Source: Priapulus caudatus
Lineage: Eukaryota
Direction: 5' to 3'
NCBI RefSeq assembly: GCF_000485595.1
Contig: NW_014577081.1
Location: 991,438 to 1,044,897 of the forward strand
DNA: 53,460 bases
A program made the translations under genes and the position numbers. Shown here in pieces: positions 1 through 34,661 of this stretch; the stretch's first letter is position 1, and each line of letters begins with the position of its first letter. The notes below the pieces were generated by a model. The model saw only the letters and a program-made list of their open reading frames with translations. It ran no database searches and had not been told where the DNA came from.

Positions 1-92
1 GTCGCCGGCTGGACAGTGGGGACCGACTGTGGCTGCGGTAGTCCCTGTTGCTGCGGCCGTAGTGCGGCGAATTCGATCTCGAGTAGGAGCGA
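1..92 (-). CDS. tra2: tra2 exon preceding the RRM (RSYSRSNSPHYGRSNRDYRSHSRSPLSSRR...), truncated by the window edge
   Basis: Acceptor CTTTTCTGCGCAG, phase 2. SRSPLSSRRRH matches the conserved Tra2 SRSP(M/L)S.RRRH.GNR pre-RRM motif; the duplicate at 10593-10711 shows the ending RRRHASNR|GT. Confidence 0.9.
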
Positions 93-109
93 CTGCGCAG
101 AAAAGCACG

Positions 110-258
110 CGCTCGTTACGCCGACCTTGACCACAGGCCGCAACCCTACGACCTTGATTTCAGGTCGCAACCCTGTGACCTTGATCTCACGTCACGAACC
201 TACGACCTTGACCTCTGGTCACAACCCCGCAACCTTGACCGGAGGTCGCAACCCCACG
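110..258. repeat. About 27-bp intronic minisatellite (about 5 copies, ACCTTGA...GGTCGCAACCCT)
   Basis: Directly visible tandem units next to the tra2 acceptor. Confidence 0.8.
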
Positions 259-649
259 AAAGTAGGGGTAGTAGTCCCCTTTACAAAAGTAGAGCACTTT
301 ACGTCGGCTGGGTGAATTTCGCCCCCGTTACGTCCAATTACGAACGTGGGCGACGTTCGCTTGTTGAACAATGCAGCGTGCGATCGCGCCGCTTCGCTAC
401 TCGTGCTGCTATGACACGTTATGTTGTTATCAGTCTCGCAGTTTTCTATCTAGGGGATTACGATCGTGACAGCCATGTCTGTGTGCGTGTGCGGCCAAGT
501 GTGACCCCGTCAATCTCACACAAAATTCATACACAAGGAAGAAACAAAAAGCATACATCAGCGACACTTAACATCGACGAATACACATAATTAATGAACG
601 AAAGCAGTCATACACGACAATGACCCTTCTTTTTTAAATCTCCACAACT

Positions 650-655
650 TTTATT
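650..655 (-). terminator. Candidate poly(A) signal for the BEN-exon isoform
   Basis: AATAAA on the minus strand about 550 nt after the BEN stop, followed by a T/GT-rich tract (about 520-600), and upstream of the next tra2 acceptor at 93. Confidence 0.55.
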
Positions 656-1207
656 AAGAAATTTACAACGAAACACGATTTACACAATATAATACAAGAG
701 GAATCGGCCAGCTACTGCTAAAAAGCTTCGTTCTTACTTCACGAGCGAAGAACGAGCGAGCGCGTTAAATAAACGACGAGAGAAAAAATAAATTACATCC
801 GAGGCCTGTCCGCGCATTCCTGTAACGTCCGTCCGACGACCAGACTGCGACCGCTCTCCCACGACAACGGAGACGACGCGCAGCATCCGATATCGTTCCC
901 GTCTCGTGGGAAGCCTCGTCGCCGCGGAAACGCCGCGACACCACTGATCAATCGTCCCACGACAACGTGGGGCGCGCAGCATCTGAGATCCAAGAAGCCT
1001 CGTTGCCGCGGAAACGCGAGATCGTGCGACGGCCGCGCACCTCGAGCCACGCAGAATTGCCACGACAGATCCACGACGCGAGGTATCGATCGATCATTCT
1101 CCAGTAGTCGCCACTAACGCTGTCGCGAATCACGGGAGAGGATCGCTCAATTGTCTCACGCATGACGTCTCTTTTAGCCTGCAGATGGCGCCACCATTGC
1201 CGGTCGA

Positions 1208-3098
1208 TCACTCGATCGTCTCGCAGGAGGCGCCACCGCCGTCGCCCCCCGCTCCTCCGTTCTCCACCGCGCCCCCCGCCTCCTCCCCTCCCCCTCCCAC
1301 TCCCCCCGGCCCGTACTTCTCCAGGTCCTCGAGGTAGGCGCGGCGGCACTTGTCGTTCATCGCGTGGCGAATCGCGTGTCGGCGCGCGCCGTGCGCGAGC
1401 GTTCCCGGGAACTCGACCTCGAGCTGCGAGAGGATCGCGTTCACGCGCACGGGGTCGAGCTTCTGCTTGCGTATGCGCCCGTGCTTCGTCAGCACCATGC
1501 CTCCCTTCAGCGTCGAGCCGCGCAGTTCGGCACGCGAGAACAGCAGTGACATCAGCTTCAGCACAAAGTGGTTCGAGGAGAGGCGCGCGCGCTCGAACGC
1601 GGCCTCGTAGACGCGACGCGGGATCTCGATCGGGCGCCAGCTGTGCGGCGCCAGCACCACGTTGTCGCCGACGACGACGCCGTACGCGGGCTTCACCGAC
1701 AGGAACTCTCCTCCTCCTCCTGTACCGACGTACGGCTGGACGGCGGCGGCGGCTGCGGAGGAGGAGGGGGGCTTCCACTTCGGCTGGTGGTAGAGTGTGA
1801 GGGACGACGGCGACGCGCCGGCAGGGGGCGCCGCCGCGTGCGCCGCCGACAGCAGCGTGTTCTCGGACTCGCGCACAAGCAGCGGCAGCGCGTCGACGAG
1901 GAACGCGTCCTGCTGCTGCTGCTGCTGGGTCGTCGTCGTCGTCATGGGCGACAGCGACGCGGACGCGCGCAGGCTCTGCAGCATGTCCGGGATGTTCGGC
2001 GGAGGCTGCGCGAAGCCGCCGTCGCCCCCGGTGATCACCGGCAGCCAATCGGCAAACTGCGACGCCGCCGCCCCCGGCTCCTCCTTCATGGCCGCCGCCA
2101 CCTGCAGGTCAAAGGTCACGGCGCCGCGGCAGCCGGGCGCCGGCCCACTCAGCTCCGACTTGACGGTGTCGAACGCGCCGAGGTCGTCGGGGTGCGACGC
2201 CGGCGCCACCTGGTGCTGCCGCCTCCTTGCGGCGGCGGCGTAGATGTGCGCCGAGGACGCCGGGTAGTAGGGGGCTCGAGTGGCGCCCTCCGGCGGCAGC
2301 GGCGAGTGCGCGGACAGGTTCGTGCTGCGCGAGTCGTCGTCGCAAACCTCGCCGCCGCCATCGTCGTCGTCGCTGTCGTCGAGTTCGATTATCTCCGTTA
2401 TGTACTTCTCGACGTCCGACCGTCGTTGCTGCTGCTGCTGCATCGTGCTGGAATCCGCCGTGTGCCGCCGTGCCGCACCGCCAGGGGGCGCCTCCGACGT
2501 CGTCTGCTCCTTGCCGAACCGTGATTCCGCGTCGATCGCGTCGTCAACGGCGACGACGTTGCCCGGCAACGGCGCGCATCTCGCGTCCGCATCCGCGCAC
2601 GCCTGTGCCACGCGGCATGCCCCCCTGCTCCCTCCACTGGCGCCCTCTCTCTTCGGCACGACCGCGCCCCACGGCGCCAACGTCTGAGCGCCCGTCGCAA
2701 CCGCTTCGCCTCCCGCGAGCAGACGCGCCGCCGCGCCGACCGCGGGTTGCCGCGGCGACGGCTCGGCGGCAGCCTCCCGCCACGATGTCAGCGTCTGCGC
2801 GAGTTCGCGAAGCTCTTTGATGATCGTGACGTTCTGTTGTTCCATGCGATCGAGCCGCTTCTCGATGTCGGCTAGCCGCGAGTCGACGGGGGCGCCACCG
2901 TCGGCGTGCGAGTCCGCCGCCGGCGCCGCCGCGGCTACGGAGTTTTCGCGAGCGCGCGCCGGCAGCGTCGCCGCGCGTTGCAAAGCGTGGATCGGAGATC
3001 GCGAGATGAGCGCTGCGAGCAGGTCGCCGTACGCGCCCGCGCCGCCGGCGGCGTCGTCATCGCTACTCCGCGCCGCGTTCTTCCTGCCTCGCTCCGAT
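1208..3098 (-). CDS. Large terminal exon encoding a coiled coil, a low-complexity linker and a C-terminal BEN domain; nested in a tra2 intron
   Basis: The 591-aa ORF extends open to the acceptor TTCTTCCTGTCTGTGTTGCAG at 3099. The C-terminus (HFVLKLMSLLFSRAELRGSTLKG...KQKLDPVRVNAI...IRHAMNDKCR, about 1343-1580) has the BEN-domain pattern (LF..EEL..S..G, LDP..V..I, I...IN.KCR). Heptad segment RLADIEKRLDRMEQQNVTIIKELRELAQ. Domain recognised by eye. Confidence 0.85.
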
Positions 3099-3629
3099 CT
3101 GCAACACAGACAGGAAGAACGGCGTTGTCAGTTCCGAAGAACCTGCGGCGCGCGGGCCGCCTCCGTTCTCCGTTCCACGATCCTCGCTTTGCAACGAACG
3201 GCGCATCACCCTGCCCCCCCCCCTTTTGCGACGGAAACGCGATTTCGGGAAAACGCGCGACCGAGTTCGTTTTTGTCGTGTTTAAAAAAAAAAAACGGAG
3301 AGACTGCTCGGGTTTTAGTTCGACGCTTCGGCGACCTTTGGCTTTCTCGCGAGTCGGTTATGCACACGATCGCACACGAAACCGCACGCACACAGACATG
3401 GTCTGACAGTTGGTGGAAATGGTACAGGGGTGAAATTCACTCAGTAGCCTTTCGACATGCATTATTTATAACTCATTTCTGTTGAACTATTTTTTAGAGT
3501 GAAACCCTAGTATAGCATATGATATGGTTAAAGAGAAACTAAACTGCAGAAAAATTTGTGCTAATAATGTATCTACAATCTACCAGGAAAGTAATACTAG
3601 GAACGTTACATGAATTTGTACACACTTAC

Positions 3630-3644
3630 CTTCTGCTTCTTGAA
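3630..3644 (-). CDS. tra2: tra2 15-nt microexon (Y-SRSR-S/R)
   Basis: TTTTTTTTAG|TTCAAGAAGCAGAAG|GTAAGT: consensus acceptor and donor bracketing an in-frame SRSR. Confidence 0.75.
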
Positions 3645-3863
3645 CTAAAAAAAACCACGAGAAATACATTTAGTGATGATATGACAAAACATTTTAATTA
3701 AACCAATAGAACTTGATAGTATTTTTAAAACAATATAAAATCTAATTGCTTTCTTTGTAGGTAAAAATATTTGACTAGGCATCGCTTAGCAAGATTAAAT
3801 ATGAGCGATGAATTTTAATCATAGATCTGTTTCATTTTAATCAAAGATCAAAGATCTACTTAC

Positions 3864-3950
3864 TATGACTTTGACTTCTTTCCTTTGGAATACGACCGTG
3901 ATCTTGAGCGACTGTATTTCGTGCGTTTTCGTTGTGACCGCGACCGGCTC
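3864..3950 (-). CDS. tra2: tra2 87-nt RS exon (SRSRSQRKRTKYSRSRSRSYSKGKKSKS)
   Basis: Acceptor CTTGTTTCAG, donor TA|GTAAGT, strongly RS-rich, phase 2-2. Confidence 0.85.
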
Positions 3951-4140
3951 CTGAAACAAGTGAACGAAGATGCGTTATCGAACCGCCATTGTGCCGTCGA
4001 TCGTTTTTCGATCATTTAAACCCTAAAAAATCTAAACATTAAGTTTAACACCTGTTTATAAGTCTCAAATAGTAAAGTAGTAAATCACGCTGGTTCGATC
4101 GCCGTTACTTAAGCAGAATCTCATTCTGTTAGACTGTTAC

Positions 4141-4176
4141 GTTCTCTTCTTCTTATCCTTGCGAGACCCGTACATT
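4141..4176 (-). CDS. tra2: tra2 36-nt phase 2-2 exon (R-MYGSRKDKKKR-T), with in-frame ATG at 4175
   Basis: Acceptor TTCTCTCACAG, donor AC|GTAACA, basic NLS-like peptide in frame with the flanking RS exons. Confidence 0.6.
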
Positions 4177-4318
4177 CTGTGAGAGAACTGATGCCTAGGG
4201 AGCGATGATGTGTGCTTGGATATCGAGCACGGCAGGATAGGAGCATGCCTGGCACGCGTCACCTGCCAGCTACAGGCGGACTAGTTACACTGCAGCCAAG
4301 GAGCAGCAGTGGACAGTA

Positions 4319-4469
4319 CAGTCAAACCTCGGTTATCCAAACATCAATTATCTGAATTTCGGATTATGCGATCTCAAGGTCCCGTGAATATTTAATAAGC
4401 CACTAGACCATCAGTTATCTGAACAAAATACTCCCCGCCCGTCTCGTTCGGATAATCGAGGTTTAATTG
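4319..4469. mobile_element. Tc1/mariner-pogo type MITE
   Basis: TA flanks; TIR CAGTCAAACCTCGGTTATCC / GGATAATCGAGGTTTAATTG (3 mismatches). Confidence 0.75.
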
Positions 4470-4508
4470 TAATCGGTTCGTTGCCACCATCATGTCATGT
4501 CAGCTTAG

Positions 4509-5131
4509 CAGTGCTCAATTTTAAGGTTTTTTTTGGGTTGTCCGGAGGACAACCAAGAGAGTAGCATATGGTTGTCCCACAAGAGTTTTGGTTGTCCGGA
4601 TATTATTTAAACATGTGCTGCATGCGCTCTGCTCACGTGATGCTCAGTGCTGTAAAGCAAAAGGCCTAATCATTATATGAAGAGAATAAAATATTGGTAA
4701 TGTGGTAAATGATGCTGGGATCAATGACGTATAATAATAGTAATTAAAAGTTGCATGAAATTTATTTCATAACATTTACATTAAGTTAACTAACACTACT
4801 AACATTACTAACATTACTAACATTACTAACACTGTGTCAAGTCACAGATGAGTAAAAATTGAAAATTAACACGAAACATTGTGTTGTTAAACACGTGATG
4901 TTATACTTTGTATCAAGCAAGCCAAACAATGCGTCTAGACATGTACGTTTGCAGCGTATTGTGCAACCCTTACCTGGCCGTATGTAAAATGAACGCGCGC
5001 ATTAATAAATTTATGAATATAAATTTTTTTATAGAGGTTGGACACCGGACAACCACGGAAGCAATTTGTAGTTGCCCGAGAGAAAATCCAGTCGTCACGG
5101 ACGACCGGACGACTGTTAAAATTGAGCCCTG
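4509..5131. mobile_element. Non-autonomous TIR element, 623 bp, 5-bp TSD CTTAG
   Basis: TIR CAGTGCTCAATTTTAA / TTAAAATTGAGCCCTG; CTTAG on both sides; absent from the duplicate copy (empty site about 13730-13740). Confidence 0.85.
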
Positions 5132-5169
5132 CTTAGCATCGTCAAACCACACAGCCACTGAAGCCACGC

Positions 5170-5790
5170 AGTGTAACGCTGTTACCTTTAATGCACTTAC
5201 CCCCCTCCACCTCCACCGCACCACAACAAGCTATTACTTTCAATGCACTTACCCACTTAACTACCGCACCGCAACAGGCTGTTACCTTCAAAGAATTTAC
5301 CCCCTCACTACAGCACAACAACAGGCTGTTACTTTTAATGCACTTATCTCCACCCATCGCACAACAGGCTGTTACCTTCAATGCACTTACTCCTCTCTAT
5401 CCCACAACAGGCTGTTACCTTCAATGCACTTACTCCCCTCTATCCAACAACAGGCTGTTACCTTCAATGCACTTACTTCTCTCTATCCCACAACAGGCTA
5501 TTACCTTCATGCACTTACTTCTCTCTATCCCACAACAGGCTATTACCTTCAATGCACTTACTCCCCTCTATCCAACAACAGGCTGTTACCTTCAATGCAC
5601 TTACTCCCCTCCTCTACGACACCAGGACAAGCTGTTACCTTCAATGCACTCACCCCCTCCTCACGACAACAAGCCATTACGCTTGATGAACCTACCCCTT
5701 CTCCATTCCGCCTCGACCAGCCGTTAACTTTACAGACATACCCCCTTCTTAACTGCCTTGTGGCACGGTCTTACCTTCAATGCACTGCCA
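5170..5790. repeat. About 42-bp minisatellite (ACAACAGGCTGTTACCTTCAATGCACTTACT...)
   Basis: More than 10 visible tandem units; they account for the repetitive ORFs 4908..5894 and 5191..5727. Confidence 0.9.
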
Positions 5791-6666
5791 CCCCCCCCCC
5801 TCACACACACACAACCAACCCCACTACACTGCACTACGCCGGCGAGTTATCGTCGGCTCTCCGACCTCGTAAGAATCAACCACGGCGCTCGTAAAAAACT
5901 ACGACCTTGGCAGTGCAACGATTGGGGCGGACGGATCGGCCGCTCGGTCGCGCTGTTAATTAGATCCGATGAAGTCGAAGATGAACGCAAACGCCGGCGC
6001 GTGCGAAAAAACTCGGATCTGGAGTGACGCACGCTCGCGACTGCGGCAGAGGGGAGGGAGCGAGTTGGAAACGTTGCCAGAAAGAATTGGGACACGCGAA
6101 AAAACGAGCAAGACTGAAGGATGATTGATCGATCGATCTACGAGCAGTCGCGCAGAAAAACCACCTTCCGCTCAGTCGAGGTGCACCGTGATCTAGGCCG
6201 CTCACCGACACACGCAGGGGTATACTGGTGAGGAACAACCAACCTCATGTAACTACATGAGTGTAGCTATATGTACATGTATACATATACTATATATATA
6301 TATATTATTGTGTTCGTTCGCGCATGCGTCTTTGTTTGTTTACGTTCGTTTGTTTGCTTGTTTCTGGTTTCCGTATACATGCACGTGTCTGTCTGCGCAC
6401 GTGTGCAAGTAACAAATAAACAGCAACGAATACAAACAAAAGTCAGCGAGTCTAGATCCGCGCCCCCCCTTCTCTCTCTCTCTCTCTCTCTCTCTCTGCC
6501 AGCCCGTGCCAAGGGTATGAGCGCAGGAGAGTCTCTAGTACTCCCTACACCCCATACAACCCGAGAGAGAGCACGCACGCACGCGCGCGTGCAGGGAGCG
6601 GGCGGACGCGCGTGTTTTGTCACTAACACACTACATCCATCGTGAGGTCGACATGCGGTTTTACTC

Positions 6667-6683: not shown

Positions 6684-7049
6684 CTGCAAGCAACAACATC
6701 ATCATGGCTCCGCGGAGCGATCGAGCGAACTTCTATTGCAAGGTGGCGCCACGTCACCGTTCTACGCGTGTGCGGGGAATTTCCCCAAAGCATTATGGGA
6801 GAGTGCAAGGCGGCGGTGCTGCTACGCACTGTCTAATCGATTATATATGAAGCTTTCGACACCAAATGAGGCTAACATAGGGCTAACCGAGTAATATCTG
6901 TAAGCGAATAACTAGGTTTGAGGAGCGGGGGATGTTAAACGCGGGGTACGCTATGTGGTCGCATGGCGGGCCGGCTTTACGTGGATCGTGAAGCTGTACT
7001 TCTGTAATCGTACTTCACTATTCTAGGCGGGGGAGACGTTTCGAATGTA

Positions 7050-7560
7050 TTAAGCATGGCCTGTGTGGGAGCTATTATAACCTGCTACAGTTGCTTCTAA
7101 CGGTACCCCCATCCCCTGAATGTATGAACTAGGGCCTGTGTGGGACGTATTACAAACTGCTACAGTAGCTTCTAACATCGCTCCCCACAATCCGAATATA
7201 TTTGACAGTGCCTGTGAGGGAGATATTATAACCTGCTACAGTAGCTTCTAACATAGCTCCCCACCCCCTGAATGTATTCAGCATGGCCTGTGTGATTTAT
7301 ATTATAACCTGTTACAGTAGCTTCTAACATCACTCCCCATCCCCTGAATGTATTAACTAGGGCCCGAGTGGGAGATATTACAAACTGCTACAGTTACTTC
7401 CAACAGCACCCCTCCCCCTAATCCAAATGTATTTGACAGTGCCTGTAAGGGAGATACTACAAACTGCTACAATGGCTTCTAACCATACCCCCCGCCCCCC
7501 ATTCCCGAATGTATTGGGCAAGGCCTGTGTGGGAAATGCTACAGTTCCTATCTAAGCCCC
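7050..7560. repeat. About 75-bp minisatellite in the last tra2 intron
   Basis: Recurring GCCTGTGTGGGAGATATTACAAACTGCTACAGTAGCTTCTAAC units. Confidence 0.8.
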
Positions 7561-8244: not shown

Positions 8245-8366
8245 CGCCGGTGGGTCGACCAGGCTAGAAACTTCGGGGTGGGTGTGTGCGCACGCTTTCG
8301 TGATCGAGTAGTCGGACTCGATTGCGCGCCCATCCAGCCCTCTATGCCGGCGCAGCTCTCCTTCGC
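8245..8366 (-). pseudogene. tra2: tra2 RRM exon c plus linker (AKESCAGIE.DGRAI..DYSITKRAHTPTP)
   Basis: The Tra2 signature DYSITKRAHTPTPG is readable across frameshifts in ORFs 7938..8459 and 8176..8472. Confidence 0.85.
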
Positions 8367-8974
8367 CCTTGGCGCGTGTGCGCAAATAACAGAGAACGTC
8401 AATAATGACGACCGCAGTCGAAACAGAAACCCCCCCCGCAGCCGTCTCCACGAAGGCACCGTAACAATACAACTACTCCTTGCAGATTGTAGATGTACAT
8501 ATATAATTGCTTGACAGCCTGGCAGTTTAAAAAGGCTAGCGATACATGCTCAATATATAACACTGGCGAATCCTTGTACGCGTATCCCTTCGCGAACCGA
8601 GCAGCAGCATTGCCTTACCCCCAAATCACGCGAGACACAGACGACAAATCGACTGGCCACCCTCAAATGAAAACTTACAGTAGGCGGCCTACCTATGTGA
8701 GTAAAAGTCGGCCGCTGCAATGCTTAAACTATTAAAGACTCTACACACCACGTTACTAAACACCACGTTCAACCTCGCTCAGATACTGACATGCACTCTT
8801 TTTTTTACTACGCCAGAAAGAAGGGCAGGGAGGGAGCGAGGAGGGAGGGCAGGAGGAGGACCAGCGGAGGAGGCAGGGAGGAGAGGAGCGCAGGAGCGGA
8901 GGGCGAGGGAGCCGAGGGAGGGCAGCGAGGAGCGCAGGAGAGGAGGAGGACGCCACATCCCACAGCCTACTCAC

Positions 8975-9035
8975 TCTGTCGCATTCATCTTGATTCTTGT
9001 AGTGGACGAAGGCAAAACCGCGAGACTTTCCCGGT
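8975..9035 (-). pseudogene. tra2: tra2 RRM exon b (GKSRGFAFVHYKNQDECDR)
   Basis: RNP1 motif RGFAFV; acceptor CCCACAG, donor GTGAGT; its 61-nt length implies an indel. Confidence 0.85.
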
Positions 9036-9405
9036 CTGTGGGAAAACAAGGCGAAGCACGTTAAGGCACTGAAGTTAAAGTTTGAAGATGAGATTCTAGC
9101 ATATGCAATCTGGGCCTTCATTGTCAGAAACAAAATGACTTTAGTCTCAATATTAACTTTGTCTAAAGTGTCACTCTGCATGTCTGTCACAGACAGTGAG
9201 CGCGGAGAGAAACAAGTGAACAGTCGTGCCGGCCAAACCGCCTCACTGCGCCCCCGCCGGCATTCAAGCCGCAAACGGATCTCGCTCCGAAAACACGACG
9301 TTCACTTGTCCACTACGTGCGTAAACGGCGACGACGATCAGAAATCGAACGAAACTTCGCGCGCAAAAAAACAAGAGCGTCGCGCAGCGAGTGCGCCCAC
9401 CTTAC

Positions 9406-9538
9406 CCTGTGGTCGTAGATGACCGAGCACTCCTCCATGGTTCCGTAGCGGCCGAACATCTCGCGGATGTCCCGCTCGGCTCCAGTTACAGCCGAGCAGT
9501 CCGAACACGCCGAGACAGCGGCTCACCTCGGGCGCCTC
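9406..9538 (-). pseudogene. tra2: tra2 RRM exon a, frameshifted copy (EAPEVSRCLGVFGL...ERDIREMFGRYGTMEECSVIYDH)
   Basis: The RNP2 motif CLGVFGL is diagnostic of Tra2; AG/GT boundaries present; the frame shifts after VFGL. Confidence 0.85.
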
Positions 9539-11187
9539 CTGCGGACAGCCAGGGGGCGCCGGTGAGCACTCGCGAGATTACGCGACGGGACGCGCGGACC
9601 CGAGCGATCAAAATTACTAACGCGAGATAGATAGGTATAGGAGATAGCACTATGCTAGGCTATAGGAGATAATAATATGCTAGGTAGCCGTAGCCAGTTC
9701 GACATGCCGGTTAGCAAAGAACCCTATAGAGAAAGGTAGATATAGAAGGCCCTTAGCACTCCTAAGGACAACTCCCTCCTAAGGGACACCCTGCTTGCTG
9801 CCCATGAGAGAGAGGTCCTTATGGCTAAAAAAAAATGGTTCCGAGAACCCACCCTACCTAGCAAATAGCGGTCCGCACCCTTTTTTTCCTCCATTTAAAA
9901 AAAAATATCAAAATTTATCAAAAATTTAAGAATAAAAATAAATTCAATCAATTATCAATTCTCAAAAATCAATTATCAATTCCAAAAATAAATCACTAAC
10001 TCCAACATATGCTACTCACCTCACCATCTACAACACGGACATTTTCGGATCTTTTTTTATTTCAAAAAAAAAATCGCGGTGACCTGACTGACCGCAGCCT
10101 AAGTTTTTCAGAGGACCGCTTCTCGGAAACACATGCATTTATTTTGTTTTAGGCGCTCTATCGCTAAGCAAGGATGCCTTTTGACCCATTTGCCCTTTCC
10201 GCTAATTTCCACGAGCGATTTTGCTCGATGGCCGTACGAAGTGGGCGCGGGAGGATTCAGCAGTCTTCTATCATCAGCCTAAAACAAGCAAATCGACCGG
10301 CTACAATAACAATTTACGGGATCCGGCGAATCGTGACGGCCGCGCACAGCACAACTACAGGGAATCGTCTAGACGATGTGGCGTGCGGTGTGGGGGGGGT
10401 AGGTGGATGGGTTGCGAAGCGAGAGAGACGGCAAGTTACGCGTTTCGCAGATCTATTCTATACTCACAAAATCCATGCATATATACACCGGACACTGACC
10501 ACGCTCGCGCAGTTCGTTAGTTTCAGCTCGGCCGCGCGTATAATAACACATATTTTGACATGGAGAAGAGATCGGCGAATCGTTCCACTGACCCTGTTGC
10601 TTGCGTGTCGTCGCCGGCGACAGCGGCCGACCCGACTGTGCCTGCCCGCTTTAGTCCCTGTTGCCTGCCCGCCCGTAGCTGCGGCGAATCCGATCTCGCA
10701 GTAGGAGCGACCTGCGCAGAAAGCACGCGCTCGTTACGCCCGACCTTGACCAGGCACGCAACCCTGCGACCTTGATTTCAGGTTGCAACCCTGTGACCTT
10801 GAGTCTCACGTCACGAACTACGACCTTGACCTCTGGTCACAACCCCACCACCTTGACCGGGCCGGTGCGCGCAACCCACGAAATAGGGGTATAGTCCCCT
10901 TTTACAAAAGTACGAACACTTATACGTCTGCTGGGTGAATTTACGCCCCCGTTACGTCTCATTACGATCGTGGGCGCCGGGTTACTTGTCAAATAATGCA
11001 GCGTGCCGACTCGCGCCGCCTTCGCTACTCGTGCGCTATGCAACATTTATTGTTATCACGTCTTGCGTTTCTATCTAGGGATTACCGATCTGACAGCCGT
11101 GTCTCAGCTGTGCGTGTGCGGCAAGTAGTGACCCCGTCAATCTCCACACAACTTCATTTACANNNNNNNNNNNNNNNNNNNNNNNNN

Positions 11188-12293
11188 CCAATCGCAACTG
11201 CCGACGCCGCCGCCCCCGGCTCCTCTTCATGCCGCCGCCACCTGCAGGTCAAGGTCACGGACGCCGCGGAGCCGGCGCACGGCCCATCAGCTCCGACTTC
11301 GGCGTGTCGACGCGCGAGGTCTGTCGAGGGCCTGCGACCGCCGGCGCGCACCTGGTGCGCCGCCTCCTTGCGCGGCGGCGTTAGATGTGCGCCGAGGAAG
11401 CCGGGTTAGTAGGGGGCTCGAGTGTGCGCCTCCGGCGGCAGCGGCCGGTGCGGGATAGGTCGCTGCTGCGGATGTCGTCGTCGCAAACGTCGCCGCCGCC
11501 GCCATCTCGTGCGTCGCGCTGTGCGTTCGATGTTCGATTATCTCCGTTATGTACTTCCTCGACGTCCGACCGTCGTTTGCTGCTGCTGCTGCAGCTGCTG
11601 GATCGCCGTGTGCCCGTGCCGCACCGCCAGACGAGGGGCCGTCGGGCCCTCCGACGTGGGTCTGCTCCTTGCCGACCGTGATTCCGCGTCGATCCGCGTC
11701 GTCAATGGCGGATCGACGTTAGCCGGCAACGGCCTGCGTGCCGTCTGCGCGTCCGCATTCCTGGCGCACGCTGTGCCACGCTGGCACGCCCCCTGCTCCT
11801 CCACTGGCGCCTACTCTCTTCGGACACGACCGCGCCCACCGGCGCCAACGGTACTGCAGCGCCCGTCGGCAACCGCTTCGCCCTCCCGCGAGCAGAGCGC
11901 CGCGGCCGCGCGAACGCGGGTCTGCGGCGTCGGCACGGCTCGGCGGCAGCCTCCGCCACGACGTCAGCGTCTGCGCAGAGTTCGCGAAGCTCTTTTGATG
12001 ATCGTGACGTTTCTGTTGTCTCATGCGATCGAGCCCTTACTCGATGTCGGTAGCACGCGAATTGTCGACGCGGCGCCCGTCGGCGTGCGAGTCCGCCGCC
12101 GGCGTCGCCGCGCGGCTACGGACGTTTTTCAGCTGCGGCGGCGCCGGCAGCGTCGCCGCGGCGGGTTGCATAAGGTGGATCGGAGATGCGAGATCGAGCG
12201 GCTGCGAGCAGGTCGCCAGTACGCGCCCGCTGCCGCCGGCAGGCGGCGGCGTCGTCATCGCTACTCCGCGCCGCGTTCTTCGGCTCGCTCGAT
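11188..12293 (-). pseudogene. Frameshifted copy of the 5' part of the BEN exon
   Basis: Colinear with 2045-3098, with many 1-bp indels. Confidence 0.85.
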
Positions 12294-15200
12294 CTGCCAA
12301 CAAGACAGAGAACGGACGTTATTGTCAGTCGCGAAGAACCTTGCCGCGCGCGGGCCGCCTCCGTTCTCGATTCCGATCCTCGCTTTGCACGACGCGCGCA
12401 TCCCCTGCCCCCCCCCCTTTTGCGACGGTAACGCGATTTCGGCGAAACGCGACCGACACCAGTTTGTTTTTGATCAGGTGTTTAAAAAAAAAAGGAGAGA
12501 CTGGCTCGGTTTTAGTTCGACGCTTCGGCGGACCTTTGGCTTTCTCGTGAGTCGGTTATGCACTCGAGTCGCACACGAAACCCACGCACACAGACAATGG
12601 TCTGACAGTTGGTGGAAAAGGATACAGGGGTTGAAATTCATCGGCCGCTAGCCTTTCGAATGCATTATTTATAACTCACTTCTGTTGAACTATTTTTAGA
12701 GTGAAACCCTGTATAGTATATATGAATATGGTAAAGAAAAACTATAACTTGCCAGAAAATTTGTTGTAATAATGTATACAGCTCTACCAGGAAAGTAATT
12801 CTGGAAACGTTACATGAATTTGTACACCTTACTTCTGCTTTGAACTCTAACAACACCACGGAGAAATACATTTAGTTGCTGATATGCAAAAGATGTGTTA
12901 ATGTAAACCAAATAGAACTTGATAAGTATTTTAAACAAATAAAATCTTAATTGCTTTCTTTGTAGGTAAAATATTTGACTAGCATCGCCTTGAGCAGATT
13001 AAATATGAGCGATGATTTTAACATTAGATCTGTTTCATTTTAATCAAAGATAACAGATCTATCTTACTATGATCTTGGACTTCTTTCTTTTGGAATACGG
13101 ACCGTGACTTGCAGCGACTGTATTTCGTGCAGTTTTCGTTTAGGTGACCGCGACTGGCCTGAAACAGTGAACGAAGATGCTTATTCGAACCGCCATTGTG
13201 CCTGATCGATCGTTTTTTCGTCATTTAACCTAAAAATTCTAAAAAATTAAGCCTTTACACCTGCTTATAGTCTCAATAGTCAAGTAGTAAATCACGCGGT
13301 CGACGCCGTTAACTTACAGCGAATCTCATATCTGTTAGACTGTTACGTTCTCTTCTTCTTATCCTTCGCGAGACCCGTACATTTCTGTGAGAGAATGGCA
13401 TGCTGGGAGCGATGAAGTGTGCCTGGACATCGAGCACGAGCAGGATAGGAGCCATGCTGGCACGCGTCACCTGCCAGCTACAGGCGCGACTAGTTTACAC
13501 TCCAGCCACGGGCCAGCAGCAGGTGGACAGTACAGTGAAACCCTCGGTTATCCAACATCAATTTATCTGAATTTCCGGATTTAATGCCGATCTCAAGAGT
13601 CCCAGTGAATATTTAATATGCACTAGACATTCAGTTATCTGAACAAAATACTCACCGCCCGTCTCGCCCTCGGCACTAAACGAGGTTTAATTGTAGATCG
13701 GTTCGCGGTGGCCACGCATCATGTCATGTTCAAGTTAGCATCGTCAAACCACACAGCCACTAAAGCCACGCAGTGTAACGCTGTTACCTTTAATGCACTT
13801 TACCCCCCCATTCCACCTCCACGCACCACAAAAGCAATTACTTTCAATGCACTTACCCACTTAACTACCGCACCGCAACAGGCTGTTACTTCAACGAATT
13901 TACCCCCTCGCATACAGCACCAAACAACAGGCCTGTTACTTTTAATGCACTTCTCTCACCCATACGCACGCGACAACGGCTGTTCCTTCATGCACTTACT
14001 TTCTCTCTATCCACAACGGCTATACTTCAATGCACTTACCCCTCTGGTTTATCCAACAACAGGCTGTTAACCTCAATGACGTATCCCCTCCTCTACCACA
14101 CCACGACAGCTGTACCTTCAATGCACTCACCCCCTCCTCACGGACCAAACAAGCCATTAGCGCTTATGAACCTACCCTTCTCCATTCCGCCTCGACCAGC
14201 CGGTTAACTTTCAGAACATACCCCCTTCTTAACTGCCCTGTGGCACGTGTCTTACCTTCATGCACTGCAACCCCCCCTCACCACCACAACACCAACCCAC
14301 AGTACACTGCACATACGCCGGCGAGTTACATCGTACGGCTTCTCCGACCTTCGTAAAGAATCAACCACGGTCGCTCCGTAAAAACTTTACGACCTTTGGC
14401 AGTTGAACGATTAGGGTTGCGGACGGATCGGCGCTCGTCCCGCTGTTGATTAGCTTCCGATGCAAGTCTGAGATAGACGCAAACAGCCGGCGCGTGCCGA
14501 AAAACTCGATCTGGAGTGACGCCGCTTCGCGACTGCGGCAGAGAGGGAGGAGCGAGTTGGAACAGGCTTGCCAGAAGAATTGGCAACGCGAAAAACGGAG
14601 CCAAAGACTTTGAGGATGATTCGACTCGATCGATCTAACGAGCAGCGCCGCCAGAAACCAGCTTCCGCTTCAGGTCGAGTGCGCACCATGATCTAGGCGG
14701 CTTCACCGGACACCACGCAGGCGGCTTAACTGGTAGGGGAACACCAACCTCATGCTAAACTACATGAAGTAGCTTATTTAAATACATAAATCAGGTGGCC
14801 CCATTATACGCGCCGTTGAGGTTCAATAAATGTTCATCCAGGAAAAGGGGCTCGCGCTAAATCAGCAGATTCAAAGAAAATCCAACATACATAGACACAT
14901 GCACACTAAGCAAATACATTGTAAACTCATTAGATTGCGCGATGTATATATGCGATCGGCGCTTCGACCTAAGGCCTTTAACCCTGAGTTAAGCCCCTCT
15001 CAAACAACATTTTTCAGTTCCGGAAAAAGCAAAAAAAAGCCCAATGACTCATCGCGTTATATCTGAATTTCCATTAAATCGGGGCGCGTAAAATCAGGGT
15101 TTGTAACAGGGCACGAAGTTAATTCGGCCACCGGCATGTATGCCAGCAAATTATTTGAGGGCCAGGTAACGATTGGCCAAACAGCGAGCACCTCTAAGAC

Positions 15201-17847: not shown

Positions 17848-18058
17848 TAACCAACATTTTTGTAATACGTACTACATACAAAATAAATAAAAACGTAACT
17901 ATTTTAGTGTTGGTATTCACACTTCATTGCCACATCCAGTAACACATTATTTTGACATTCTTTCACAAAAAGTCAAACTCAGACATACCCACAGGCACTT
18001 GGTGCATTTCAATAAAATATAACGCTAAATAAATACAAAATCTATTTACTACCAAAGT

Positions 18059-18652
18059 CTTAATGTTTCTAATTCTATACTCTCTTTCACCTATTATTGC
18101 CGACAATTTCATGTAAATGCCGTCCAAATGCTCATGTGCAACAAACGCTGGCGGCAGCCATTGCTCACGCTGCACACTGAACCTTAAATATATAGCAGGT
18201 AGGAAAGCGTGATCGCTAAATTCGCTCGACGCTAGCTTGATTTTCATACGAATACAACACAAATACTCAACCATTATTCTAATTTTTATTATTTTTATAG
18301 TTTATTATTATAACCAATGCGAGAATTTCGTCAGTCTTTGTGTGATTTCGCGTGACACAGCTCGGTTACGAACACAGACAGTATGTTTTTATAACAAGTG
18401 AACACTGTTCTTGAAATAGAAACAAAGATGGAGTAGAATGGTTGAGTATTTGTGTTGTATTCGTATGAAATCAAGCTAGCGTCGAGCGAATTTAGCGATC
18501 ACGCTTTCCTACCTGCTATATATTTAAGTGTCAGTGTGTAGCGTGAGCAATGGCAGCCACCAGTGTTTGTTGCACATGAGGATTTGGATGGCATTTACAG
18601 GAAATTGTCGGCAATAATAGGTGAAAGAAAGTATAGAATTAGAAACATTAAG
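18059..18652. mobile_element. Long-TIR (about 215-bp arms) foldback element
   Basis: 18059-18275 is the reverse complement of 18437-18652 with few mismatches; the ends fall at TTAA. Confidence 0.85.
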
Positions 18653-18954
18653 CCTGAGTAGCCACAATAGATTTGTAAGGCTAAAAAGCGAAAATAATCA
18701 TATCTTACATTATTATGGTCACACAAACTGCATGAAATTTCACCATTATGAAAGAACAATCGATTTAATTTATATAAGTTTGTAATAACTTTGTCCATAA
18801 TAGATAGGAGGGTATTAGAAGATTCGGAGAACAGTTTCCAACTTTCCATCTTCGCTTTCATGTTTAAATTTTAGCATCTTCTCCACATGTTTACTCCTTC
18901 AATAAATTTGAAAAGCCACATATATTCCCCCTTCCTACATTTACATATATATAA

Positions 18955-19558: not shown

Positions 19559-19674
19559 CTCGTCTTGGAGCGCGATCTGGAAAAGGAATGACTGCGAGAG
19601 CGAGATTTCAAGGAAGGATTCACATCATTGGGAGATCCGCCCCTGCCACGTTTCTTCACCGCAACCGTGCTTCC
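19559..19674 (-). CDS. tra2: tra2 exon 2, start of RS1 domain (GSTVAVKKRGRGGSPNDVNPSLKSRSRSHSFSRSRSKT)
   Basis: Acceptor TTTCCAG, 116 nt open in phase 0, RS dipeptides, donor AG|GTTCGT (phase 2) compatible with all downstream RS exons. Confidence 0.75.
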
Positions 19675-20300: not shown

Positions 20301-20315
20301 CTCATCGTCACTCAT
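20301..20315 (-). CDS. tra2: transformer-2 homolog, coding exon 1 (MSDDE)
   Basis: Minus strand ATG AGT GAC GAT GAG followed by donor GTATAA (phase 0). An MSD-acidic start is typical of Tra2 proteins, and it joins in frame to the RS exon at 19674. Confidence 0.75.
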
Positions 20316-25843: not shown

Positions 25844-26172
25844 CTGGTGAGCAATAAAATCAGTAAAATGTAAAAAGCCTGTACATGCATAAAATCGCGT
25901 TACCAATTTTATCAATAGCCTGATGAAGAGACAATGTCTTGAAAGCTTGCTATGAAATAAATATATGACACACTATTTCTATACTTTGAATTAAATTCTA
26001 TTTATGTACGTTTACATGTATATATATATACACACGCATGCATGCACGCACGCACATGTATATATATACTTAGACAATAAATATTAATACTATATATAAT
26101 AAGATGTTCAGAATTATTTCGGAATCTGTAATTAGGCACTCCTGCTTTACATAACTCGGCAGCAAACCTCAC

Positions 26173-26366
26173 CGCGGGCGACTTTGAGGACTTGTTCTGT
26201 CGGAAGAAGCGCATGCCGATCGGTGTGATGGCGAACGGGGGAGACTGACGCTGCGCGACCACCTCGCTGCCCCGTTGCTCCCGATGCGTCGTGCTCCCCC
26301 TGGTGGTCGTCGGCACGGCAACGCGCGTCGCGTTGCCTCTCGCGTTGAGCGCTTCCACGTGAAAAC
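26173..26366 (-). CDS. AGBL5: AGBL5 C-terminal low-complexity exon
   Basis: Acceptor CTTGCAG, donor GTGAGG, GC-rich codons, phase 1-0. Confidence 0.65.
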
Positions 26367-26860
26367 CTGCAAGACGCGAGGCGTTGGACACTCAGCCAAG
26401 CACCCTCTCCCCACCCGTCATCTATGTCATGCAGCAACAAGATACTACCATACTGCCTGAGCTGCACAGCTAGTTGATGGGTGTCTATGTTCCCCACCCG
26501 AACCTATCTCCTCTCATCTCTCCATCCGACCCTCTCCCCTTCTCCTTCCACCCGGCCCTCTCCCTCTCTCCTCCCACCCAACCGTCTAGTTCTTTCTCCG
26601 TCTCCTTCCACCCTCTACCCCTCTCCCTCTCTCTCCTCCATCCAACCCTCTCCCTCTCTCCTTCCACCCGGCCCTCTCCCTCTCTCCTCCCACCCAACCG
26701 TCTAGTTCTTTCCCCCTCTCCTTCCACCCTCTCCCCTGTCTTCCACCCAACCCTCTCCCCTTTTTCCCACCCAACCCTCTCCCCTTTCTCCCACCCGACC
26801 CTCTCCCCTTTCTCCCACCCAACCCTCTCCCTCTGCTCCCGTGCTCCCGGGTAGCTTTAC

Positions 26861-27069
26861 CGTTGACGAGCACGGCCGCCTTGCCTCCCGGCATCTTCTC
26901 GCTCGTCCGCTTCACTGTCGAGACGTGGCGCTGAAGATCGGACCGGCTACTCCGCGCCGCCGTAGCCACGGCGTGCCTCGTCGCACACGTCGACAACGCG
27001 GCCTTGCTGCTGGCGGCTGCAGCGGCGGCGGCTGCGGTGGTGGCGGGCAGGCACGACGTGCTGGCGTTG
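26861..27069 (-). CDS. AGBL5: AGBL5 Ala-rich exon
   Basis: Acceptor CTGCTACAG, donor GTAAAG, phase 2-1. Confidence 0.65.
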
Positions 27070-27536
27070 CTGTAGCAGGTGAACGCACGGATGAACGCAC
27101 AGCTCGCGCGACGACAGCGAGAACGAGGGGCGTATGACGCAGGGATAGCATGGGGATGATCGCGGGGGGGGGGGCACTGCACGCGTTAATCCATGGGCGC
27201 CGAATATCAAATGCCGATATTCAATCCTAATTCGTTTATATCCAATTAAACCTGTGCAATCACGTACACCAAGGTGGTACTCGAGTGAAACCCCAGAATT
27301 ATTCTTTATTGGCCCGACCTGACCCGACGTCAACCCGACCCAACCTGACCCCGACACCACTCGACTGACCTCCTCCCAACCCCGACCCGACCTCACCCGA
27401 CTGACCTGACCTCCCGACCCGACCTGACCTCCCGACCCCCGCCCGACCCAACCCGACCTCCTCCCAACCCTGACCCGACCTCGACCTCCTCATGACCCGA
27501 CCTTCTCCTGACCCCGACCCTCGGCGCTCGTCATAC

Positions 27537-27736
27537 CTGTTGCCGGAGGGCGGCGGCGGCGGGGCTCGCTGCGTCTGCCGCGGCATGCTGAAGCGCTGCA
27601 GGCCGTTGGCGGCTCTCAGCTGCCGACGCAGCCAGTCGCGCAGGCCGCGCATCGACTGATGCTCGGAGCGTGGCAGCCGCGACCACGGGTTCGCTTCCAG
27701 CATGTCCAGCGCGGCGACGGCCAGGGCCTTGCCCAC
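27537..27736 (-). CDS. AGBL5: AGBL5 exon (VGKALAVAALDMLEANPWSRLPRSEH...LRDWL)
   Basis: Matches the AGBL5 motif VG.A.A.AALDM...NPW.R...SEH; canonical splice sites. Confidence 0.9.
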
Positions 27737-28218
27737 CTGAGATGGAAGGACAAGGTAGAGTGAGGGGCGAGTGACAGAAAAATAAGGGGCGAGTGACCGA
27801 CAAATAAGGGGCGAGTGACCGACAAATAAGGGGCGAGTGACTAGCGAATGACCAGTGAGCGACCAGCGTATGAGGGGAAAATAAGGGGCAAGTGAATGAC
27901 GTATGGTCAACGAATGAGGGGCGAATGAGGGGTGAGTGACCAGCGAGTGAAGTGGGAATAACGCGGATTTTACGAAAATTCGTACGTCTCTGCAGAGATT
28001 TTTGAGCAAAATTTTTGAACGCGATACTTCCATGCAATAATCTTTTTTCACGAAACTCGGACGAGAACGACGAACAATTGCGAACGACGTGAAAATATTA
28101 CGGATAATCCACAACGCGCTACCCACTTATTAAAGATCGGCGAAGAAGCGTGATCGACGCACAAGTGAACGCAACGCGAGATGTAACAAATGCAAGCACC
28201 ACCTGGCGAGCGTCTTAC

Positions 28219-28348
28219 CTCGCCCCAGATGTGAGGCGTGTACTTCGGCGGCAGGCCTATAGGTGGCGGCGGCGTCGCGCGGTCGTTGAGCGAGAGCGGC
28301 AGCACGTTGACGACGCAGCCCGTGTTGTAGTTGCACTCCAGCGTGTAG
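28219..28348 (-). CDS. AGBL5: AGBL5 exon containing the catalytic Glu (YTLECNYNTG...RATPPPP)
   Basis: M14D carboxypeptidase YTLE motif followed by the AGBL5-typical CNYNTG. Confidence 0.92.
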
Positions 28349-28379
28349 CTGTGCGGGGAATCAACGACGTGTTAGAGTG

Positions 28380-28765
28380 ATCATGCACGATCGCAAGGGC
28401 GGAGGCACGCACGATCGGAGGAGTGGGGCAGGGGGGCAGAGGCGTGCACGATCACAGGGGTAGGGCAGGGGGGCGGAGGCTCCCACGATCGAAGGAGCGG
28501 GGCAGGGGGCGAAAGCGTGCACAATCGCAAAGGCGGGGCAGGGGGCGGAGGCATGCACGATCACAGGGGCAGGGCAGGAGGGCGGAGGCGTGCACGATCA
28601 CAAGGGCGGGGCAGGGGGGCGGAGGCTTGCACGATCGCAAGGGCGGGGCAGGGGGGCACGCACGATCGCAAGGGCGGAGCAGGGGGCGGAGGCGTGCACG
28701 GTCGCAAAGGCAGGGGAGGGGCGGGGGCACGCACGATCGCAGAAGTGGGGGCTTGCGCGATCGGT
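28380..28765. repeat. About 29-bp GC-rich minisatellite (GCACGATCGCAAGGGCGGGGCAGGGGG)
   Basis: Visible tandem units in an AGBL5 intron. Confidence 0.85.
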
Positions 28766-29016
28766 ACACATCGAAACCTATGCCACTGTCACTTCACTGT
28801 CTATTCACGTCCATGCTATTACGCACTATATTACATTACGTACCACATCACTATATTGCAACACCACGTGCATATTACGCGTCAAACTCATCCTATTACG
28901 TACTATATCGATACAATACAATACTACGACATGCATATTACATGTCAACACCATCCTAGTACATACGTAACATACTTGATCTGTACATCGCCACACTACG
29001 TGCGTATTATGCTCAC

Positions 29017-29186
29017 CAGTGGCTGATGCCGGTCATTTTGTACGTGGCGACGCGTCCGCTGCCAGACTTGGACATGCCGTCGCGTTTGTCCTTCGTGTAC
29101 ATGTTCCGCTCAGTGAAGTTGCAGCCGGAATAGTCAAAGTGCGGCGTGTTGAGTGACAGCAGCTTCGTGTAGAGCAGTGCTGCCAT
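29017..29186 (-). CDS. AGBL5: AGBL5 exon ([26 protein letters not shown]...GSGRVA)
   Basis: Matches AGBL5 LY.KL.SLN..HFDF.GCNF.E.NMY; 170 nt, phase 0-2. Confidence 0.92.
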
Positions 29187-29352
29187 CTGACGCAGGAAAT
29201 CGTAATGAATGAAGAAAATATGTAGTGAATTAATAATAAGTCTAAAGCGGTAAAAATTCACACAATTATAATTATTAAAGGATTGGGTTTACCAGATAGA
29301 AAAAGTTCGTACATCAGTAATGCAGAATCGTAAAACATTATCGCTCCATTTG

Positions 29353-30415
29353 AACAAGAGCCGCAGAGCGACTGGGCTCATCTGAGGTGTGTTGTTACGG
29401 TTATAAACGTCACATTTAAGTCGTGCGTAGTGACACCTTTGTTAGGCGCAGATATGCAGATACGCAGTTGCGTACACATCATTTCAGCAACCTTCTGCAT
29501 TCTGCATACCTCCCAAATCCCATTGGTTGATACAAATCACGTGCCTGAAACTCCTGTTTTATGGTGCATTGTGACCCTAACCCTAACCCTATTAAAAAAA
29601 AAGGAAAAATTAATTGTTGTAAATAAATCATGTAAATATTTGCGTTAATTGGAAAAAAATAGTTTAATGGATAAAGATAGAAAAATACAGGAAAACAGGT
29701 AACTAATAAAAAATCAGATGGGATTCGATCCAACAACCTTTCAGCCGTGACGCTCATGCTGTACGCGTTTGGCTATCCATGCTTATTGGGTTTCTAGATT
29801 ATTGATGTGCCATGAATATGACAACACTGGGACGTCATTGAGGCAGTTCAGGAATCCATGTTTAACCCTCCTCTTGAGGGTCAAAAGATTATCAGACACT
29901 TACTCTTCGCACGTCAGTGGAAAGCACATTTCATGGTCCTTTCAATAAAGTGATAAAAAAAAGTCAGCGCTGAAACAAAAAAGGTTTTCACTCCATTAGG
30001 CCATATCCTCAGAAAATGTCTGATATCCGACCTTTCCCCCACTGCCCTTTGACCTGTGACCTCCAATTTCGCACTGGTGATGAGTTTCCTGCCCATCACA
30101 CTATACACCGAATATTAAGAGCATAGGTCAAGCCGTTCAGATTTGCGCCGCAATTCCGTATTTCCTCCTATACCTTAAGTTAAGGGGGAAATATTCCCCC
30201 TCCGTTTACACATCTTGACCTTTGACCCTTGACCCCCAAATTTGTCATCCTGAGTCCTTTTCACGATCTCCCTCCCCCCCGACGTCCCGAATATCGTAAC
30301 CGTACGTCGAGCGGTTAAGATTTGTGCCCAACTGGTGACGCACAGGGATGGACGGATGAACGCACGCTCATGCGATTCTACAAGCTGAATCTGACTTCGT
30401 CAGATGAGCTAAAAA
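29353..30415. mobile_element. Helentron-like non-autonomous element
   Basis: AACAAGAG start; subterminal inverted repeat GCTCATCTGA (29375) / TCAGATGAGC (30400); terminal hairpin TCTGAC-TTC-GTCAGA plus an A-run; TTGACCTTTGACC motifs. Confidence 0.55.
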
Positions 30416-30689
30416 GCATTCCTGTGTCCCGCATTCATGTTGCCGTGCAACATGCCTACACCCCTGCACCACACATCCCTGCACCCTGCATCCTTCCATC
30501 ACCACACCACTGCATCTTTGCATCCTCGCACCCCTGCTTCACACATCCCTGCAACCTACACCCTGCATCCCTGTATCTGTGCATCCTCGCACCCCTGCAT
30601 CCCTGACCCACATCCATCCTAGCATCCCATGCAGCTTCGCACCCCTGCATCCTTCCCTTCCCCATCCCCCCACATCCCTCCCATCCCTC

Positions 30690-30968
30690 CAGAGATGCCA
30701 ACACATATTTGAAGCAATCTGTAGTTTCTGGACATCAAATTAGTAGTTTGAGGGTCACGCAGTGACACGAGTTTGCTAGGGGGGTCCGGCATGACCCCCG
30801 GAAAATTTTTTGATTCTGAGATGCAATTTCCTGCATTCCGAGGGTAAACGAATTTGTTTTTTTTTTATCATAGTGAAATTCGTAGTTTGATACAAACTGG
30901 TCGTAGTGGTGCAAAAAGAATAGAAATTCGTATAAAATACGAATAAATCGTAGTGGTTGGCATCTCTG
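30690..30968. mobile_element. MITE with a 13-bp perfect TIR and 6-bp TSD TCCCTC
   Basis: CAGAGATGCCAAC / GTTGGCATCTCTG with TCCCTC on both sides. Confidence 0.8.
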
Positions 30969-30994
30969 TCCCTCCATCCCCGCATCCACCTCAC

Positions 30995-34471: not shown

Positions 34472-34661
34472 CTGCAATAAATGATAAACGACGTTTCCCA
34501 ACGTGCTTGCATGATCGAGACGCACTACCCGTGCACCTGCCTGCGAGCCTCGATGTACCCGAGTTCTCTGGTACAGCATTCTCGAATACACGTTGCAATC
34601 TTACGCGTGCAATAAAAGTGGGAGATAATTCTCGAATATCAATTTTTCATGATGGCCTTAC

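What the first reader, a model, noticed from the sequence alone, without database searches (positions are those of the whole stretch)
3630..3950. A 15-nt microexon acts as an isoform-specific on/off gate for the BEN protein
Seen in sequence: the 87-nt exon ends in the split codon TA|. Spliced to the microexon or to the pre-RRM exon, both of which start with T, it gives TAT (Tyr). Spliced directly to the BEN exon, which starts with A, it gives TAA (stop). The microexon ends in AG|, giving AGT (Ser) with the tra2 exon and AGA (Arg) with the BEN exon. Microexon skipping therefore removes only 5 aa from Tra2 but converts the BEN transcript into an RS-only peptide with a 3' UTR of about 2.4 kb. The microexon (TTCAAGAAGCAGAAG) and the first bases of the BEN exon (GGAAGAAC) contain AGAA/GAA motifs, the established Tra2 binding sites. 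Inference: this could be an autoregulatory circuit analogous to the vertebrate TRA2B poison exon.
Basis: partly seen in the sequence, partly recalled or inferred. Interest (0 to 1): 0.75.

Follow-up and report, generated by a model that had tools for sequence, protein, structure and literature searches.

The report
Tra2 microexon before BEN terminal exon
A tiny 15-letter exon in an invertebrate splicing-factor gene is real and is included in nearly all RNA reads seen, so it is likely a fixed shared piece rather than a switch; the notable feature is a conserved, expressed exon inside the gene that likely swaps the protein's RNA-binding half for a predicted DNA-binding BEN domain.

Summary
The codon arithmetic is right: exon 3950-3864 ends TA; with the microexon the BEN isoform would be 707 aa, without it 72 aa. 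The microexon is real: one contig and 3 reads span exon-microexon-tra2 exon, and 23 loose-end reads give the microexon as consensus. No skip junction (3864->92 or 3864->3098) was listed, so skipping is below roughly 20% in the one informative sample. The microexon has the best donor in the gene. Polarity is opposite to the TRA2B poison exon: inclusion would rescue BEN and leave Tra2 unchanged. The gate is therefore likely a by-product, though NMD or tissue-specific skipping is not excluded. The solid finding is the BEN exon: expressed, 11 of 14 scored variants synonymous, BEN fold confirmed, and its acceptor-spanning peptide and pre-Met sequence conserved in a 38%-identical relative. It is likely an alternative last exon giving an RS1-BEN fusion, like CSB-PGBD3; the junction read itself was not visible. 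A better poison-exon candidate lies at 4176-4109.

The parts
20301..20315 (-). tra2 exon 1, coding part (start codon; ends in phase 0)
19559..19674 (-). tra2 exon 2 (116 nt, RS1 start, ends AG in phase 2)
   Evidence: its 3' end is the consensus of 48 loose-end reads at 3952
4109..4176 (-). candidate AGAA-rich cassette/poison exon (acceptor 4176; weak donors 4141 in frame, 4109 past an in-frame TAA)
   Evidence: densest AGAA cluster, 5 per 100 nt, and the only two AGAAGA in 1-6290; no X4 depth; use not shown
3864..3950 (-). 87-nt RS1 exon ending in split codon TA
   Evidence: about 118x depth in X4
3630..3644 (-). 15-nt microexon (adds 5 RS-type residues), donor 8/9 match to consensus
   Evidence: included in contig X1, 1 read X2, 2 reads X4, and consensus of 23 loose-end reads
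635..3098 (-). BEN alternative terminal exon (ORF 3098-1208, poly(A) signal at 655; 3' end approximate)
   Evidence: depth from about 680 to 3124, zero 3125-3834; 11 of 14 scored variants synonymous; homolog P0001
2756..2881 (-). predicted coiled coil in the BEN exon, conserved in P0001 and P0002
   Evidence: alignment; only weak coiled-coil-type Pfam hits
1346..1570 (-). BEN domain
   Evidence: PF10523 E 8.5e-4, below gathering score; model pLDDT 91.7; Foldseek top hits all BEN structures
1..92 (-). pre-RRM tra2 exon (runs off the window)
   Evidence: about 63x depth in X4
10610..14791 (-). indel-rich second copy of 1-6286, likely an uncorrected long-read or haplotype artefact
   Evidence: 183 inserted and 96 deleted bases against 79 mismatches over about 2.5 kb, mostly single bases
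8260..9538 (-). tra2 RRM exons, frameshifted noisy copy only (edges approximate)
   Evidence: RNP1 piece matches RRM_1 at E 0.0012

Best explanation
The microexon is a real exon, included in nearly all reads seen, and likely a near-constitutive part of the RS1 domain shared by two products of a tra2-type gene; the working switch is likely the next step, the choice between the BEN exon (acceptor 3098, own poly(A) site) and the pre-RRM exon (acceptor 92). The first choice would give a 707-aa RS1-coiled coil-BEN protein with no RRM, predicted to bind DNA; the second gives normal Tra2. The TA|A stop is likely a by-product of an intron splitting a Tyr codon; it would at most act as a passive fail-safe sending rare skip products to long-3'UTR NMD. 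Shown: exon edges, microexon inclusion toward tra2, BEN exon expression, coding constraint, BEN fold. Inferred: the 3630->3098 splice, translation of the fusion, DNA binding, constitutive inclusion in all tissues.
For: Inclusion: joint 94->3864 with microexon letters in contig X1, 1 read X2, 2 reads X4; 23 loose-end reads, agreement 0.95; no skip joint at the 3-read threshold; rough 95% upper bound 22% if 2 of 27 were hidden, 11% if 0 of 25. Donor 8/9, best of the five donors scored; no UGC in 40 nt upstream. BEN exon spliced to something upstream: depth about 8-13x just inside the acceptor and zero in 3125-3834; 6.06 on + against 0.56 on -, the reverse of what a transcript 5' end would give. 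First Met is residue 85 of the exon, but the sequence before it is conserved in P0001 (0 of 2000 shuffles), as is the peptide across the acceptor (0 of 2000). 11 of 14 scored variants synonymous; the one listed indel is 3 nt. BEN fold.
Against: No read joining 3630 or 3864 to 3098 was displayed (4 loose-end rows hidden; no three-part joint listed), so the upstream partner is not shown; exon 19559 could also join in frame. Only X4 is deep; tissue unknown; about 55% of it was read. NMD could hide 3864->3098. The microexon is more AGAA-rich than its codons require (P=0.013). Agreement 0.95 leaves room for one or two skip reads. The relative's DNA could not be seen, so synteny with tra2 is inferred from one peptide match. 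No fused RS-BEN protein was found among 43 related proteins.
Confidence: 0.65

Rival explanations
1. One reading: the microexon is a regulated cassette; Tra2 or another SR protein binding AGAA promotes inclusion, so BEN protein is made only when it is active, while Tra2 changes by 5 aa. It would be a feed-forward gate on BEN, not feedback on Tra2.
For: Frame logic exact; two AGAA in 15 nt, P=0.013; long 3' UTRs favour NMD in Drosophila (PMC3962487 passages), which could hide the skip product; the relative keeps Arg at the junction, so if coded AG|R its exon would also start with a purine.
Against: No 3864->92 skip joint, which NMD cannot hide; strongest donor in the gene, whereas one Tra2 target is described as needing multiple sites and a weak 5' site (PMC3240583 Discussion); no AGAAGA in the microexon.
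Confidence: 0.15
2. The BEN exon itself is the feedback element: high Tra2 would promote the proximal acceptor 3098 and divert transcripts away from the RRM exons. Compatible with the best explanation.
For: Using the BEN exon removes the RRM; depths fit a split (87-nt exon about 118x, pre-RRM about 63x, BEN 3' part about 30-65x); AGAA slightly above shuffles over the whole exon (10 against 5.5, P=0.038).
Against: One AGAA in the first 200 nt (P=0.29) and no AGAAGA anywhere in the exon; untested.
Confidence: 0.2
3. Tra2 autoregulation at this locus runs through a different, TRA2B-like poison exon at 4176-4109 (or a longer form), upstream of the 87-nt exon. Compatible with the best explanation.
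For: Densest AGAA window of the two stretches scanned, both AGAAGA sites of 1-6290, weak donors, in-frame TAA after the first donor.
Against: No X4 depth at 3977-4250; the 36-nt form is in frame; AGAA may simply reflect Lys/Arg codons; P=0.012 is after picking the best window.
Confidence: 0.3
4. The BEN ORF is an independent nested gene with its own start inside the intron, so the microexon has nothing to do with it.
For: No junction read displayed; P0002 and most BEN relatives are stand-alone ORFs as predicted; BEN-solo proteins are common.
Against: Good acceptor in the right phase; conserved sequence before the first Met; strand pattern and zero depth upstream.
Confidence: 0.08

Closest known systems
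CSB-PGBD3 (ERCC6 intron 5), PMC2268245
   Same: A single long coding exon with its own poly(A) site inside a host intron acts as alternative 3' terminal exon and is fused in frame to the host N-terminus; conserved.
   Different: Here the host is an SR-type splicing factor and the exon encodes coiled coil plus BEN, with no transposase shown; a microexon sets the frame.
Vertebrate TRA2B/TRA2A poison exons, PMC3240583
   Same: tra2-type gene, AGAA motifs, a possible stop-containing product.
   Different: There inclusion adds the stop and lowers Tra2; here inclusion removes the stop, affects only the BEN product, and the exon is 15 nt with a strong donor.
Drosophila mod(mdg4) and lola (recalled, not read here)
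   Same: Shared N-terminus joined to alternative DNA-binding C-terminal exons, some of BEN type.
   Different: Shared part is a BTB domain, not an RS domain; many alternative exons and trans-splicing.
BEN proteins BANP, BEND6, NACC1, Insensitive, Bsg25A
   Same: Fold matches (TM 0.54-0.60 by query for BANP, NACC1, Insv, Bsg25A; 0.45 for BEND6); upstream coiled coil predicted.
   Different: About 20% identity; no RS-domain fusion found in my searches; DNA binding untested.

Membership tests
TRA2 poison-exon autoregulation | Inclusion of the regulated exon introduces the stop | tested here: not met
   Inclusion keeps both frames open; skipping makes the stop
TRA2 poison-exon autoregulation | The event lowers functional Tra2 | tested here: not met
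   Tra2 frame open with and without the microexon
TRA2 poison-exon autoregulation | Array of AGAAGA-type sites in the exon | tested here: not met
   Two AGAA, no AGAAGA in microexon; both AGAAGA of 1-6290 at 4153/4150
TRA2 poison-exon autoregulation | Responds to Tra2 level and NMD block | not testable with these tools
   No perturbation data
Regulated cassette microexon | Both inclusion and skipping occur | tested here: inconclusive
   Inclusion seen; skipping not listed; one deep sample, bound about 11-22%
Regulated cassette microexon (neural SRRM/eMIC type) | UGC motif just upstream of the acceptor (feature recalled) | tested here: not met
   No TGC in 40 nt upstream
Intronic alternative 3' terminal exon (CSB-PGBD3 type) | Own acceptor, ORF in host phase, own poly(A) site, expressed | tested here: met
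Intronic alternative 3' terminal exon (CSB-PGBD3 type) | Direct splice to host exons | tested here: inconclusive
   Indirect support strong; junction reads not displayed
Intronic alternative 3' terminal exon (CSB-PGBD3 type) | Transposon origin | not tested
   No transposase hit in Pfam; terminal repeats not searched
BEN domain (PF10523) | Profile match at curated cut-off | tested here: not met
   19.9 bits against 23.2; 20 of 36 family members match at E<=0.01
BEN domain (PF10523) | BEN fold | tested here: met
   pLDDT 91.7; all listed hits of rank 1-16 are BEN structures, best E 3.4e-4; profile hits BEND6, BANP at E 1e-4
BEN domain (PF10523) | Sequence-specific DNA binding | not testable with these tools
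   Needs experiment
Tra2 family | RS1 - single RRM - linker - RS2 layout | tested here: met
   RRM seen only in the noisy copy
Tra2 family | Best match to Tra2 among RRM proteins | tested here: inconclusive
   Fragments too short: TRA2B chains at E 0.15, below hnRNP A1 and nucleolin; other fragments gave nothing. Assignment rests on layout and recalled signature motifs

The most novel reading that the evidence does not exclude
A conserved invertebrate tra2 locus encodes a second protein, an RS-domain/BEN DNA-binding chimera, and a Tra2-responsive 15-nt exon licenses it in particular tissues, tying splicing-factor activity directly to a chromatin or transcription regulator that carries a spliceosome-recruiting RS domain.
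Probability: 0.15. Interest if true: 0.78.

Novelty: new variant of a known kind. Interest (0 to 1): 0.45.

Why it matters
Tra2 is known as an RNA-binding splicing regulator. An alternative last exon that replaces its RRM with a BEN domain would give an RS-domain protein aimed at DNA, a natural test of whether an RS domain tethered to chromatin recruits splicing machinery; RS domains without the RRM can co-activate splicing (PMC3240583 Discussion). I found no description of a tra2-BEN product in my searches. The fusion (about 0.85 likely) carries most of the interest; the microexon gate adds to it only if skipping is regulated, which the available RNA does not show.

Tried and rejected
No whole genome is held, so no paralog search and no clean RRM exons. 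No indexed RNA holder was listed for the stretch; the raw runs were added by species label. The second read lay read the same 55% of X4 and showed only 6 of 10 loose-end rows, so the 3098 junction stayed hidden. X2 and X3 cover the exons at about 1-2x with scattered intronic reads and are nearly uninformative. No related locus in metagenome contigs (598 pattern matches, 0 confirmed) or viral contigs (234, 0 confirmed). Viral BEN structures match only weakly (best E 3.3e-3, 16% identity): no support for viral origin. The wide structural search did not run. Atlas hits were under 0.9, leads only. Earlier findings: none. Rejected: the second copy at 10610-14791 as independent support for conservation (error spectrum of a raw long read); 'stop in the last exon cannot trigger NMD' (3' UTR length is a main signal outside vertebrates); in-frame rescue acceptors 3065/3062 (4 of 17 pyrimidines). 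No complex prediction was run.

Full report
Setting. The window is from an invertebrate draft assembly; a neighbouring sulfotransferase has no named relative above about 62% identity, with best named hits from myriapods, spiders and a brachiopod. The gene lies on the minus strand and has the RS1-RRM-Gly-rich-RS layout of Tra2. Formal assignment from the short noisy RRM fragments was inconclusive; the name Tra2 rests on layout and on motifs I recall. Positions 10610-14791 are a second copy of 1-6286 with 183 inserted and 96 deleted bases against 79 mismatches, which I read as an uncorrected long-read or haplotype artefact. It carries the only RRM exons in the window and is not independent evidence.

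Observation. All four exon edges are as stated. Exon 2 (19674-19559), found from the loose ends of 48 reads, fixes phase 2. Conceptual splicing gives 707 aa for BEN with the microexon, 72 aa and a stop without it, and Tra2 forms differing by 5 aa. The stop is not special to this acceptor: TA followed by A or G always stops, and exon 2 also ends in AG, so a direct exon 2-BEN splice would be in frame.

Is the microexon used? Yes. Contig set X1, 1 read of X2 and 2 reads of X4 join 3864 to the pre-RRM exon with the microexon letters between; 23 X4 reads have loose ends at 3864 whose consensus is microexon plus tra2 exon, agreement 0.95. X3 gave none. About half of each raw run was read; reads are 51-52 nt; X2-X4 are one study and only X4 is deep.

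Is it skipped? No joint 3864->92 or 3864->3098 was listed (threshold 3 reads). The first is in frame and cannot be hidden by NMD. A rough 95% bound is 11% (0 of 25) to 22% (2 of 27), assuming equal detectability and that microexon choice is independent of last-exon choice. The microexon has a T-rich acceptor, the best donor of the five scored (8/9) and no upstream UGC.

Is the BEN exon part of this gene? It is expressed in X4 from about 680 to the acceptor, with a trough in the most GC-rich part, and depth is zero at 3125-3834. Just inside the acceptor depth is about 8-13x with 6.06 on + against 0.56 on -. At a transcript's high-coordinate end one expects the reverse, and the poly(A) end shows the expected pattern (11.1 against 0.12), so fragments likely continue upstream through a splice (inference; insert size assumed). 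The junction reads were not displayed: 4 of 10 loose-end rows were hidden. Of 17 variant rows in the ORF I scored 14 (dropped 2360, 2361, 2363, a 3-read cluster in poorly matching reads); 11 are synonymous. One close homolog exists, P0001 (38% overall, 71% over the C-terminal region). It matches across the acceptor itself (CCR-SER in both) and in the stretch before the first Met, each at 0 of 2000 shuffles, so that stretch needs an upstream coding exon in phase 2 in both species. P0001's DNA could not be seen. P0002 shares the coiled coil and BEN end. None of 43 related proteins has an RS-rich N-terminus, but many are single-ORF predictions that could not show one. The domain is below Pfam's cut-off (19.9 against 23.2 bits) yet models at pLDDT 91.7 and matches BANP, NACC1, Insensitive, Bsg25A and BEND6. 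Named sequence relatives are sea cucumber and crinoid BEN proteins.

Mechanism. Most likely the microexon is a fixed part of RS1 and the working choice is the last exon: BEN (RS1-coiled coil-BEN, no RRM) or the RRM exons. The TA|A stop is likely incidental, or a passive fail-safe. The TRA2B analogy fails on polarity: in mouse, Tra2 activates exons whose inclusion brings the stop, through arrays of AGAAGA-type sites (PMC3240583, passages and Discussion). If this locus has such feedback, better candidates are the BEN acceptor choice or a cassette at 4176, which has the densest AGAA window and the only two AGAAGA in 1-6290, weak donors and an in-frame TAA, but no reads in X4.

Literature. Searches: transformer-2 + BEN domain, 2 papers, listing only, titles on fruit-fly sex genes; tra2 autoregulation, 21 papers, 20 listed; tra2 + microexon, 56, 20 listed; BEN/terminal exon/fusion, 324, 20 listed, none of the 20 mentions BEN; BEN phylogeny, 4; tra-2 isoforms, 3; a linker motif, 0. 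None of the listings describes a tra2-BEN product; subscription papers are missing and no supplements were read. CSB-PGBD3 (PMC2268245, abstract and outline) is the closest architecture; mod(mdg4) and lola are recalled.

Verdict. Observation confirmed; gate unproven and disfavoured (about 0.15); RS1-BEN alternative last exon likely real (about 0.85). Interest 0.45.

Noticed in passing
window 4176-4109 (-): AGAA-rich candidate cassette exon with weak donors and an in-frame stop after the first donor; a better TRA2B-type poison exon candidate than the microexon; no reads in X4.
   Followed up: partly
window 10610-14791 vs 1-6286: Indel-rich duplicate of the locus, likely a false tandem duplication from a raw long read; it puts a whole noisy tra2 3' half between exon 2 and the clean 87-nt exon.
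   Followed up: yes
window 4510-5133: Segment present in the clean copy but absent from the noisy copy; 4251-5100 is covered in all four runs with many variants and loose ends, as for a dispersed repeat or mobile element; likely a haplotype difference.
   Followed up: partly
window 3065 and 3062 (-): Tandem AGs that would restore the BEN frame after microexon skipping, but with purine-rich upstream sequence.
   Followed up: partly
window 45186-46367 (-): Single long ORF for a heparan sulfate 3-O-sulfotransferase (PF00685).
   Followed up: partly
window about 26000-32350 (-): GC-rich exon-like ORF pieces, one with a motif recalling a cytosolic carboxypeptidase (recalled, untested).
   Followed up: no
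window 5150-5760, 7040-7545, 37910-38486, 18056-18655, 34178-37367: Minisatellite arrays, two long inverted repeats and a 99%-identical 1.27-kb direct repeat across an N gap.
   Followed up: no
P0012, P0013, P0016, P0020, P0028, P0036-P0038: Several BEN relatives share an N-terminal motif with conserved Trp and a C-terminal BEN, forming an apparently uncharacterised family, in named cases from sea cucumbers.
   Followed up: no
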